DNA of 64,000 bases. It comes from Heptranchias perlo (taxonomy: Eukaryota). Positions 3,001-6,000 of this stretch are shown piece after piece. The position numbers and the translations under genes were made by a program. The notes beneath the pieces were generated by a model. The model was given only the letters and a program-made list of their open reading frames with translations. It was not told the origin of the DNA and searched no databases. The stretch lies in NCBI RefSeq assembly GCF_035084215.1, contig NC_090342.1, positions 9,114,001-9,178,000 on the forward strand, given 5' to 3'. Position 1 is the first letter of the stretch. The number at the start of each line of letters is the position of its first letter.

Positions 3001-6000
3001 AAACAGTTGCACTCCTGACCTTATGGTGAAGGGAAGGTCATTAATGAAGTAGCTGAAGATGGTTGGGCTGAAAACATTTCCCTGAGAAACTGCTGCAGTG
3101 ATATCCTGGTGTGCGATAATTGGCTCCAACGACCACAACCGTCTTCCTTTGTGTCAAATATGACTCCAGCCACTGGAGGGTGTTCCTCTTGGCCCGCAGT
3201 GACCTCAGATTTGCTAGGATTCCTTGGCGCTATACTTAATCGAATGCTGCTTTGATGTCAAGGGCAGTTATTACCTCTCTTCTGGTATTCAACTCCTGTA
3301 TCCATGTCTGGATCAAGGCTGTGACAAGGTCTAGAGCTGCCTGGTTCTGTCAGAACCTACACTGAGCTTTAGCAAGCAGGCTATTGGTGAGCAGGTGTCA
3401 CTTGATGGTACAGTTGATGACTTCTACTTTACTGATGATTGGGAGGAATCTGATAGGGCAGCAATTAGCCAGGTTTGTTTTGACCTGCTTTTTGTGGATA
3501 GGACATACCTGGGCAATTTTCCATTGTTGGGTAGATGCCAGTATCACAGCTGCATTGGAACAGCTTGGCAGGGTGCCCGGTTATTTCTGTGCAGGTTGTC
3601 AGCCCCTACAGCCATGATACTGTTAGGGCTATAGCACTCAGCCACGTCGTAATGTCACATGGGGTGAACCGAATGGCTAGAAACTAGCATCTGGCGACCA
3701 TGGGAGTGGACAAGTAGAATCATCTTTTGCAAACATTTCAGTCTTATCTCATGCGCTCACATGCTGGGCTCTGCCATTGTTGAGGATGGGGATGTTCATG
3801 GAGCCGTCTCTTCTAATTAGTTTTCTGATTGCCCACCACCATTCTTGACTGAGTGTTGTAGGACTAGAGCTTTGCTCTCATCCACTGGTCATGGAACTGC
3901 TTAGCACAGTCTGTAGTCCGCTGCTTTCTGAGTTTAGCATGCAGGTAGATTGATTCCTAGGATGAGAGGGTTGTCCTATGCGGAGAGATTGAGAAGAATG
4001 ATCCCATATTCTCTGGAGTTTAGGAGAGGTGATCTCATTGAAATGTATAAAATTAGAGGATTTGACAGACTAGATGCGGAGAGTTTAGAACTAGGGGGGC
4101 ATAGTCTCGGGATAAGGGGTTGGCCATTTAGGACTGAGATGAGGAGAAATTTCTTCACTCAGAGGGTGGTGAATCTTTGGAATTCTCTAGCCCAGAGAGC
4201 TGTGGATGTTCAGTCGCTGAGTATATTCAAGACTGAGATTGATAGATTTTTGGACTCTAAGGGAATCAAGGGATCTAGGGATCAGGCAGGAAAGTGGAGT
4301 TGAGGTCAAAGATCAGCTATGATCTTATTAAATGGTGGAGCAGACTCGAGGGGCCATCTGACCTACTCCTGCTCCTATTTCTTATGTTCTTATGTAGCCC
4401 TGTGTTGTAGCTTTACTAGGTTGGCGCCTCATTCTAAGGCATGCCTGGTGCTGCTCCTGGCATACCCTTCTACACTTCCGAGTGAACCATGATTGGTCTC
4501 CTGCCTTGCTGGAGACGTTAATGAGGAGGATTTTGCAGGATTGACTGGGCTGAGATTACTTGAGGACATTGTGTGCCCTGTTTAAACTATAATTTGACTA
4601 ATAGCCATTTATGATCACTAAAAGCCACTAAAGTGGCTTTATCCACTGTTCCTCAACCAGAATTCAATTTGTCTTTCAAGGGCAAACTAGAACACAAAAT
4701 GGAACAAAGATGTAAATTTAATGCACAAACAGCTGGTATGTCATGCCTTCCTTACTGCGATCATCATGTAGTTTTTTCCAGTGGGTTTTATGAGTTTTGG
4801 GGATTTCTTTTGTGTACAGAATATATTTACTAACCTGAGTTTGAAGAATGAGGAGAACAGGAAGAGGCAGTGATGTCTTTTTCTCTGCTATCAGTTCTCG
4901 TCTCAATAATCCAACTGTAGTCCTCAATCCATCGCCTAAAGACAGCGGCCCACAACGCCTGAACAGACCGACACTCAAGATATGCCTCCAGACAATCAGT
5001 CTCATTTCTGAATGCTCCACATACTCGAAGCTCGTTAGCCAAAATAACCAGGATCAGTGGAAGTGAGCTCAATTTTCTACTCATAATACTTTGGATTTGG
5101 CTCTCACTTATTTCTTTGTAGGGCATGGCCAGATGCTTCTGGAAGATATGCACTTGGACTTCATAGTCAGATATGTTGGAAAGCGACACCACTTTCACAT
5201 CTTCATGCTTTGACAGCGATTTGTAGGAGAGGTTGGAAGAGGCACTGGTTACAATAAGTTTGCACTGAGCTGGGAGAGGTGGAAGCCATGAGAATTCCTT
5301 TACCTGTACAGAGAGGTGTCACTATATTAGTATACAATAATGAACCAAGGCATTTTTTGCAAAATAAGCATGAAGAAAGCTTACTGGTTATGTAAAATAT
5401 GTAACAAACTGCTCTGCTTTTGTAACTTTTGAAAAAACCCTTTAGAAATAGAACGAATTACTTATCAAAACGCCTTGTATTCAAAATTAATCTCGTTAGC
5501 GAAGAGGTTTGAATGGCTGATGAATGTTACAAATATAAATCATGCAGGTGCTGCTTCTTACAGCGACAAAGTCCATATTCATTATCTTATCATTGAATAT
5601 TATGGATGGAATACTCTGAGGCCCATACCACCGGCTATAATATACTATGATGTGGAGATGCCGGTGATGGACTGAGGTTGACAAATGTAAACAATCTTAC
5701 AACACCAGGTTATAGTCCAACAATTTTATTTGAAAATCACAAGCTTTCGGAGGCTTCCTCCTTCGTCAGGCGAATGTGACATTCACCTGACGAAGGAGGA
5801 AGCCTCCGAAAGCTTGTGATTTTCAAATAAAATTGTTGGACTATAACCTGGTGTTGTAAGATTGTTTACATTTATAATATACTATGCACTTATATTTTAA
5901 ATAAAGCTTGAATTATTACGACTGTCAGATTTGATTTTCTTATTTTTAAAAGCTGTACAAATCTGTTGTATTTTTAATTTATCATTAATAATTATAACAA

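What the first reader, a model, noticed from the sequence alone, without database searches (positions are those of the whole stretch)
5636..5884. TSD-flanked 191-bp palindrome carrying an intact hammerhead ribozyme core on both strands
Seen: 95-bp inverted arms (5683-5777 / 5779-5873) with one mismatch and a 1-nt centre, a 12-bp TSD, and CTGACGA...GAAA cores pointing outward on each strand. It sits about 130 bp from a TTC41 exon. Known: Penelope pLTRs carry minimal type I hammerheads that cleave as dimers, and truncated Penelope insertions often have an inverted pLTR. Inference: a transcript of either polarity contains one ribozyme plus its full antisense. It could act as a self-inhibiting or co-transcriptionally gated ribozyme, a long-dsRNA source for ADAR or Dicer, or an ambisense retrozyme-like mini-element. 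Alternatively it is only an integration by-product.
Basis: partly seen in the sequence, partly recalled or inferred. Interest (0 to 1): 0.8.

Follow-up and report, generated by a model that had tools for sequence, protein, structure and literature searches.

The report
Fold-back Penelope retroelement insertion
This hairpin in a shark gene's intron is one of thousands of dead-end insertions left by a Penelope-type jumping gene; it is ordinary in kind, but where such hairpins fold back appears to mark the start of the element's RNA, which hints at how these elements copy themselves.

Summary
The palindrome, both minimal hammerhead cores and the TSD are real (TSD 14 bp, not 12). It is the known Penelope-like (PLE) 'inverted pLTR + tail + TSD' insertion, from a Neptune-like family with a full-length copy in this shark genome, lying in a TTC41 intron. 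It is not a mobilised palindrome: 54 of 89 sampled copies are fold-backs with 44 junction types, and the 14 copies with this exact centre differ in polarity, subfamily markers and ends. In either polarity the antisense arm is transcribed first and buries the ribozyme, so no gating window exists. New here: arm ends pile up about 30 nt downstream of a conserved TATA-like box, shift 4 nt with it in a sister subfamily, often gain an untemplated C, and avoid the ribozyme cut site. Best reading: two cDNAs, primed on both target strands at the two tail ends, run off the capped 5' end of the mRNA and are joined head to head. No start-site or cleavage data were obtainable. The scan found such fold-backs before in two other genomes.

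The parts
5636..5649 (.). Left target-site duplication, 14 bp; its last 3 nt (ATG) match the element end (primer microhomology)
   Evidence: D8; ATG precedes 56 of 89 copies
5650..5682 (-). 33-bp PLE tail; in the full-length copy it runs up to the ORF start codon
   Evidence: L061
5650..5777 (-). Arm 1 (tail + pLTR, c1-c128); inferred cDNA primed on the top target strand and ending at the predicted RNA 5' end
5737..5773 (-). Minimal type I hammerhead, host-gene sense; stem I has one G-U (change at 5771); predicted cut 5741/5740
5778..5778 (.). Junction G; templated (c129) or cap-derived, not separable in this subfamily
5779..5873 (+). Arm 2 (pLTR without tail, c128-c34); inferred cDNA primed on the bottom target strand
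5783..5819 (+). Minimal type I hammerhead: stem I 4 bp, CUGACGA, extra A, stem II 5 bp, GAAA, palindromic AGCU, predicted cut after 5815
   Evidence: features as in PMC4209133
5826..5831 (+). AATAAA in the pLTR (mirror copy 5725-5730 on -); possible polyadenylation signal
   Evidence: sequence; weak oligo-A loose end in a sister family (X6, 3 contigs)
5873..5886 (.). Right target-site duplication
5304..6003 (-). 700-bp GT-AG intron of TTC41 that hosts the insertion
49060..50846 (+). 5'-truncated, decayed PLE body (RT end, endonuclease, 3' pLTR with hammerhead, no tail) of a sister family
52523..52657 (+). Solo pLTR arm with tail, 91% identical
57613..57780 (.). Second fold-back copy with its centre inside stem II, lacking the CUGA cores

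Best explanation
A dead-end insertion of a Neptune-like PLE. Steps inferred (no biochemistry was run): a capped mRNA starts about 30 nt downstream of a TATA-like box, about 8 nt upstream of the hammerhead core. The RT-endonuclease cuts the target with a stagger of about 12-14 nt. Each target 3' end primes reverse transcription inside the RNA, one at the start codon (tail end) and one about 35 nt upstream, helped by a few nt of microhomology. Both cDNAs run off the RNA 5' end after about 128 and 95 nt and are joined head to head, giving TSD-tail-arm-arm-TSD. The palindrome is made anew at each insertion and is not itself a template. Its two ribozymes are passengers, locked in a 95-bp duplex in either polarity. 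Shown: the architecture, junction heterogeneity, the end hotspot, arm concordance and the intronic position.
For: 54 of 89 copies chosen only by a tail-arm motif are short fold-backs with 44 junction types as scored; this window's type is 2 of 54; mirror-image junctions exist (5 vs 3, 2 vs 2). Others form a continuum up to >2-kb inversions, in some of which arm 2 holds sequence absent from arm 1 (L033, L040, L050). 14 exact-centre copies: tail on either side (9 vs 5), two c59 alleles, different outer ends and flanks. Arms agree at the A/G site c59 in 91 of 95 copies, while singleton changes are one-armed 50 times and mirrored twice. End hazard per 100 nt: 5.2 at c118-131, 0.2-0.6 in most other bins, 1.3 at c132-160, 0.16 at the ribozyme cut. 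A TATA-like box lies at c156-166 across subfamilies. Sister subfamily (TATA 4 nt further up): 26 of 38 non-read-through arms end at c132/133; shift versus this subfamily p=0.0013; next base is an untemplated C in 7 of 10 non-G cases (p about 0.006-0.02). Full-length copy L061 starts at c130/131 and its tail ends at the ATG. Two internal RT start sites delimiting the tail, and cleavage and extension of both strands, are reported in vitro (PMC11167929).
Against: No start-site data: the transcription start is inferred from spacing only. D. virilis Penelope is reported to use a TATA-less internal promoter (PMC2377424). In this subfamily ends spread over c119-133 with peaks at microhomology sites (c119, c124), and 15 of 145 lie at c132-160. 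G, not C, is the commonest base after c132 (16 of 26; 5 from one array) and is ambiguous. Most ORF-start-bearing copies that reach the hammerhead read through the predicted start (by inspection; mixed subfamilies), so read-through templates or jumps must be common. Two cDNAs over one region need two RNAs from one source or strand displacement; this is unexplained. Samples are the first-listed matches on contigs C1-C4.
Confidence: 0.72

Rival explanations
1. Same by-product, but made by self-priming or snap-back: one cDNA (or an antisense template, as proposed in PMC3846280) folds back and copies itself.
For: Arms share subfamily alleles (91 of 95); junctions show 1-5 nt microhomology.
Against: Arm 2 can be much longer than arm 1 and hold ORF sequence that arm 1 lacks. 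Tail-less solo arms with their own duplication exist (L258, L261). Mirrored singleton changes are rare (2). Arm 2 outer ends cluster at c28-45, a second priming zone.
Confidence: 0.13
2. The end hotspot is an RT pause or template-switch site at the hammerhead stem I and its microhomology-rich flank, or the result of later deletion at palindrome centres, not the RNA 5' end.
For: Peaks at c119 and c124 are microhomology junctions; self-complementary GTCA/TGAC words lie here.
Against: The sharp edge moves 4 nt relative to the ribozyme in the sister subfamily and is seen in solo arms with no palindrome; untemplated C is enriched.
Confidence: 0.08
3. The palindrome is a non-autonomous mini-element (ambisense retrozyme- or MITE-like) copied as a unit.
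For: All 40 scored candidates matched nearly full length at 94-100%; 14 exact-centre copies.
Against: Those hits were selected by the query. Unselected copies are heterogeneous; exact-centre copies come in both polarities on several backgrounds with no shared flank. The unit lacks the ORF-start RNA that the anole enzyme needs (PMC11167929; transfer to this family is inference).
Confidence: 0.04
4. This copy acts on TTC41 as an intronic dsRNA (ADAR/Dicer substrate), gated ribozyme or poly(A) site.
For: A 95-bp duplex forms in the pre-mRNA; AATAAA lies in host sense.
Against: Forcing hammerhead helices I and II costs 58-66 kcal/mol; antisense is always made first; no same-strand partner core lies nearby; the intron is spliced out in the same individual; it is one of 2466 similar places.
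Confidence: 0.03

Closest known systems
Inverted pLTR + 30-40 bp tail + TSD insertions of endonuclease-positive PLEs (PMC3846280, PMC8557442, PMC2377424)
   Same: Head-to-head inverted pLTR, tail on one side (33 bp), short TSD, variable arm length, palindromic junction.
   Different: Minimal case with no element body; sharp end hotspot tied to a TATA-like box; published reading was self-priming on an antisense template.
Minimal type I hammerheads of metazoan PLEs (PMC4209133)
   Same: Core, extra nucleotide between 9 and 10.1, G10.1-C11.1, palindromic 15.2-16.2, 4-bp helix I; that paper already notes pairs on opposite strands 100-700 bp apart.
   Different: Helix II is 5 bp (7-8 in S. mansoni); the two cores are only 17 nt apart.
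Anolis PAc (Poseidon) internal initiation (PMC11167929)
   Same: Two internal start sites bounding the tail; both strands cut and extended; ribozyme cleavage not needed; tail end about 90 nt downstream of the cut site.
   Different: Here the family is Neptune-like by motif and the tail ends at the start codon, not at +111-118 of the ORF. The main text read does not treat inverted products.
L1 twin priming (recalled; seen only in search listing)
   Same: Both target 3' ends prime; microhomology junction; TSD.
   Different: L1 inversions join adjacent, non-overlapping segments; here both cDNAs copy the same region.
Non-LTR retrozymes (bioRxiv 10.64898/2026.07.22.740005)
   Same: PLE-derived, non-coding, type I hammerhead.
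   Different: Retrozymes are head-to-tail tandems; this is head-to-head and not copied as a unit.

Membership tests
EN+ Penelope-like element insertion | Inverted pLTR with 30-40 bp tail on one side | tested here: met
   33-bp tail
EN+ Penelope-like element insertion | Target-site duplication | tested here: met
   14 bp; 12-14 bp in 38 of 54 fold-backs, none found in 5
EN+ Penelope-like element insertion | Same pLTR flanks an RT ORF | tested here: met
   L061, pLTR-ORF-pLTR+tail; RVT_1 E 9e-11
EN+ Penelope-like element insertion | C-terminal GIY-YIG endonuclease with CCHH | tested here: inconclusive
   Motifs readable by eye in the translation; no Pfam hit at E 0.01 and no PDB hit at E 1 for that stretch of a decayed copy
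Neptune clade | CX2-5CxxC linker finger and DKG motif | tested here: met
   C-x4-C-x2-C and DKG in L061; definition from PMC8557442 passages; Nematis shares the finger
Neptune clade | RT phylogeny | not tested
   No reference PLE sequences were fetched
Minimal type I hammerhead | Core, extra base 9/10.1, G10.1-C11.1, palindromic helix III stub | tested here: met
   AGCU in 339 of 356 motif matches (overlapping loci counted more than once); one compensatory change in stem II between subfamilies
Minimal type I hammerhead | Self-cleavage as a dimer | not testable with these tools
   Arm ends at the cut site 1 of 145; only contigs available
Canonical hammerhead (Rfam) | Covariance-model match | tested here: not met
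   none at E<=10
Non-LTR retrozyme | Head-to-tail tandem units each with a hammerhead | tested here: not met
   Head-to-head pair
Non-LTR retrozyme | Circular RNA intermediate | not testable with these tools
   No raw RNA reads
Mobilised palindromic mini-element / MITE | Uniform length, ends and centre across copies | tested here: not met

The most novel reading that the evidence does not exclude
PLEs replicate through a double 'strong-stop' intermediate: both target strands prime near the 5' end of a capped mRNA and run off the cap. A cDNA that then jumps to the RNA 3' end, through the shared hammerhead-to-poly(A) stretch, rebuilds pLTR-ORF-pLTR+tail (as in L061); repeated jumps give partial tandems; failure gives solo arms and fold-backs like this one. 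One mechanism would explain tail, tandem and inverted pLTRs. Not shown: no cross-subfamily chimaeras at the start site among the three main subfamilies and no extra C in read-through copies, so read-through or circular templates remain open.
Probability: 0.3. Interest if true: 0.7.

Novelty: new member of a known kind. Interest (0 to 1): 0.36.

Why it matters
The single insertion is ordinary. The population is useful: how PLEs make tandem and inverted pseudo-LTRs is stated as open in PMC2377424 and PMC8557442, and thousands of young, minimal fold-backs record both priming sites and the cDNA end points at base resolution. They tie the in vitro two-site initiation result to the inverted architecture, argue that uncleaved RNA is the template in vivo, and give exact positions to test by CAGE and in vitro insertion. 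They also warn that a shared palindrome centre does not imply a mobile palindrome.

Tried and rejected
Rfam scan: no hammerhead. Best-hit DNA search suggested a shared centre; rejected as query selection after unselected sampling (vs 27, 28). Two 'private' mirrored changes in L009 turned out to be subfamily alleles. Ribozyme-defined template end: rejected, 1 of 145 ends at c89-93. 5' ends of ORF-start copies: mixed subfamilies made apparent ends at c124 artefacts; uninformative. Chimaera test for strand transfer: first run empty through a script error, rerun negative. Sequencing runs: no RNA holder listed as such, all runs are contigs; no start or end pile-ups and no empty-site joint among those shown, with 71 joints not shown, so editing, cleavage, start site and polymorphism are untested. 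Atlas search gave only NACHT-like leads. PDB search of the endonuclease stretch: none. PMC5932611 passages were not relevant. Sequence look-up of earlier findings: none.

Full report
Observation. The inverted arms (5683-5777 / 5779-5873, 95 nt, one mismatch at 5771, centre G5778) and a 14-bp flanking direct repeat (5636-5649 / 5873-5886) are present. The left arm continues for 33 bp (5650-5682) without a partner, so the insert is 224 bp. Below, c is the distance from 5650 (c1). Both strands carry a minimal type I hammerhead with a predicted cut after 5815 (c91 side). Rfam has no match, but the features are those listed for PLE minimal hammerheads in PMC4209133. The host is TTC41 on the minus strand (100% to a record labelled Heptranchias perlo; all 15 hits are labelled TTC41 or TTC41-like); RNA-like contigs from two studies splice across the 700-bp intron that holds the insert.

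Parent element. The 3.25-Gb genome holds 469 exact matches to a 44-nt tail-arm motif, 893 to a 28-nt hammerhead motif of this subfamily and 2466 head-to-head hammerhead cores against 15 for the reversed control. L061 is a full-length, decayed copy: pLTR, ORF, 3' UTR, pLTR + tail, with its own duplication. The tail ends at the start codon. The ORF has an RT, DKG, a C-x4-C-x2-C linker and CCHH / GIY-YIG-like motifs read by eye, which points to the Neptune type as defined in PMC8557442; no tree was built.

Is the palindrome copied as a unit? The best-hit search looked that way (40 of 1545 candidates scored, all near full length), but it selects for the query. I analysed 89 of the 100 listed (of 469) tail-arm matches, chosen without regard to what follows. 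54 are short fold-backs with 44 junction types as scored (about 8 rows had misplaced break points through subfamily differences). This window's type is 2 of 54, and mirror-image junctions occur. The rest are long inversions, solo arms or run beyond the fetched stretch. In several, arm 2 holds ORF or UTR sequence absent from arm 1. Arm 2 ends outward at c28-45 in 53 of 54. All 14 exact-centre copies have their own flanks, come with the tail on either side (9 vs 5) and carry different subfamily alleles. The same centre therefore forms repeatedly.

Where do the arms come from? At the roughly 50:50 site c59 the two arms agree in 91 of 95 scorable copies; singleton changes are one-armed 50 times and mirrored twice (96 two-armed copies, 6 duplicates removed). 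Arms thus share a template lineage at birth and are not homogenised afterwards. Arm ends are not random: for 145 arms (8 copies of another subfamily left out) the end rate per 100 nt is 5.2 at c118-131, 0.37, 0.56 and 0.23 in other bins, 1.34 at c132-160 and 0.16 at the ribozyme cut. A TATA-like box sits at c158 here and at c156-166 in sister subfamilies whose neighbouring sequence differs. In a subfamily with the box at c162, 92 arms (92 of 100 listed, of 1156; 8 members of one array left out) gave 54 read-throughs, 26 ends at c132/133 (5 from that array), 8 at c129-131 and 4 further up. The 4-nt shift against this subfamily has p=0.0013 (samples ascertained differently, and paired arms not independent). 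After c132 the template predicts G; observed G16, C7, A2, T1. C is enriched among non-G bases (p 0.006-0.02), as expected if the cap is copied (cap-templated C is recalled knowledge).

Mechanism. These data fit two target-primed cDNAs, begun at c1 and about c36, that run off a capped 5' end and are joined. PMC11167929 shows in vitro that a PLE enzyme cuts and extends both strands, starts at two internal sites that bound the tail, needs RNA downstream of those sites and does not need ribozyme cleavage. Applying this to the shark family is inference. Against: the start site is unmapped; D. virilis Penelope has a TATA-less promoter (PMC2377424); ends in this subfamily are smeared by microhomology; read-through copies are common; and tests for a strand jump were negative.

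Ribozyme function at this locus. The arms are head to head, so in either polarity the antisense is transcribed first. The core is unpaired with p<0.001 and forcing helices I and II costs 58-66 kcal/mol. A dimer partner on the same strand is absent nearby. Gating is therefore unlikely; the structure is a constitutive duplex that is spliced out. Editing or small-RNA production could not be tested, as only contigs exist.

Prior knowledge. Inverted pLTR + tail + TSD, with palindromic junctions, is described in PMC3846280, PMC8557442 and PMC2377424; opposite-strand hammerhead pairs in PMC4209133. Seen: PMC11167929 and PMC4209133 parts 1-2 of 4; bioRxiv 10.64898/2026.07.22.740005 part 1 of 5; passages only of PMC8557442, PMC3846280, PMC2377424, PMC6155905, PMC5932611. 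No figures or supplements were read; those of PMC11167929 may bear on inverted products. Two earlier scan notes reached the same by-product verdict in other genomes (after my reading was set).

Verdict. Real, ordinary in kind, not a mobile palindrome or gated ribozyme. Moderate interest (0.36) for the testable clue to PLE replication.

Noticed in passing
L061:721-3903 (G000:C1:82837000-82841500): Full-length decayed copy of the parent family whose 5' pLTR begins at c130/131, next to the predicted start site.
   Followed up: yes
L280-L284 (G000:C1:147.70-147.74 Mb): Tandem array with 13 matches about 2-7 kb apart; the five fetched carry the same fold-back junction and flank, so a host-side amplification.
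   Followed up: partly
L174 / L175 (G000:C1:28.89 Mb): Two solo arms 1.3 kb apart in opposite orientation with related left flanks, both ending at c132 plus C.
   Followed up: no
window 5822, run X6: Sister-family contigs run into oligo-A about 13 nt behind AATAAA, a weak hint of polyadenylation inside the pLTR upstream of the tail.
   Followed up: no
window 5652-5698: Tail bin has higher summed contig depth than the other element bins in RNA-like runs X5 and X6 but not in DNA run X1; depth is a poor measure.
   Followed up: no
window 58713: A hammerhead-like core of a different family.
   Followed up: no
window 47190-47837: Plus-strand exons ending in KDEL, probably HSP90B1 (identity recalled, not tested).
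   Followed up: no
window 16709-26625 and 18082-21142: Kilobase inverted repeat pairs (88-96%), probably nested mobile elements.
   Followed up: no
pLTR c125-135 across subfamilies: Subfamilies diverge by small insertions right at the predicted start site while the hammerhead side is conserved.
   Followed up: partly
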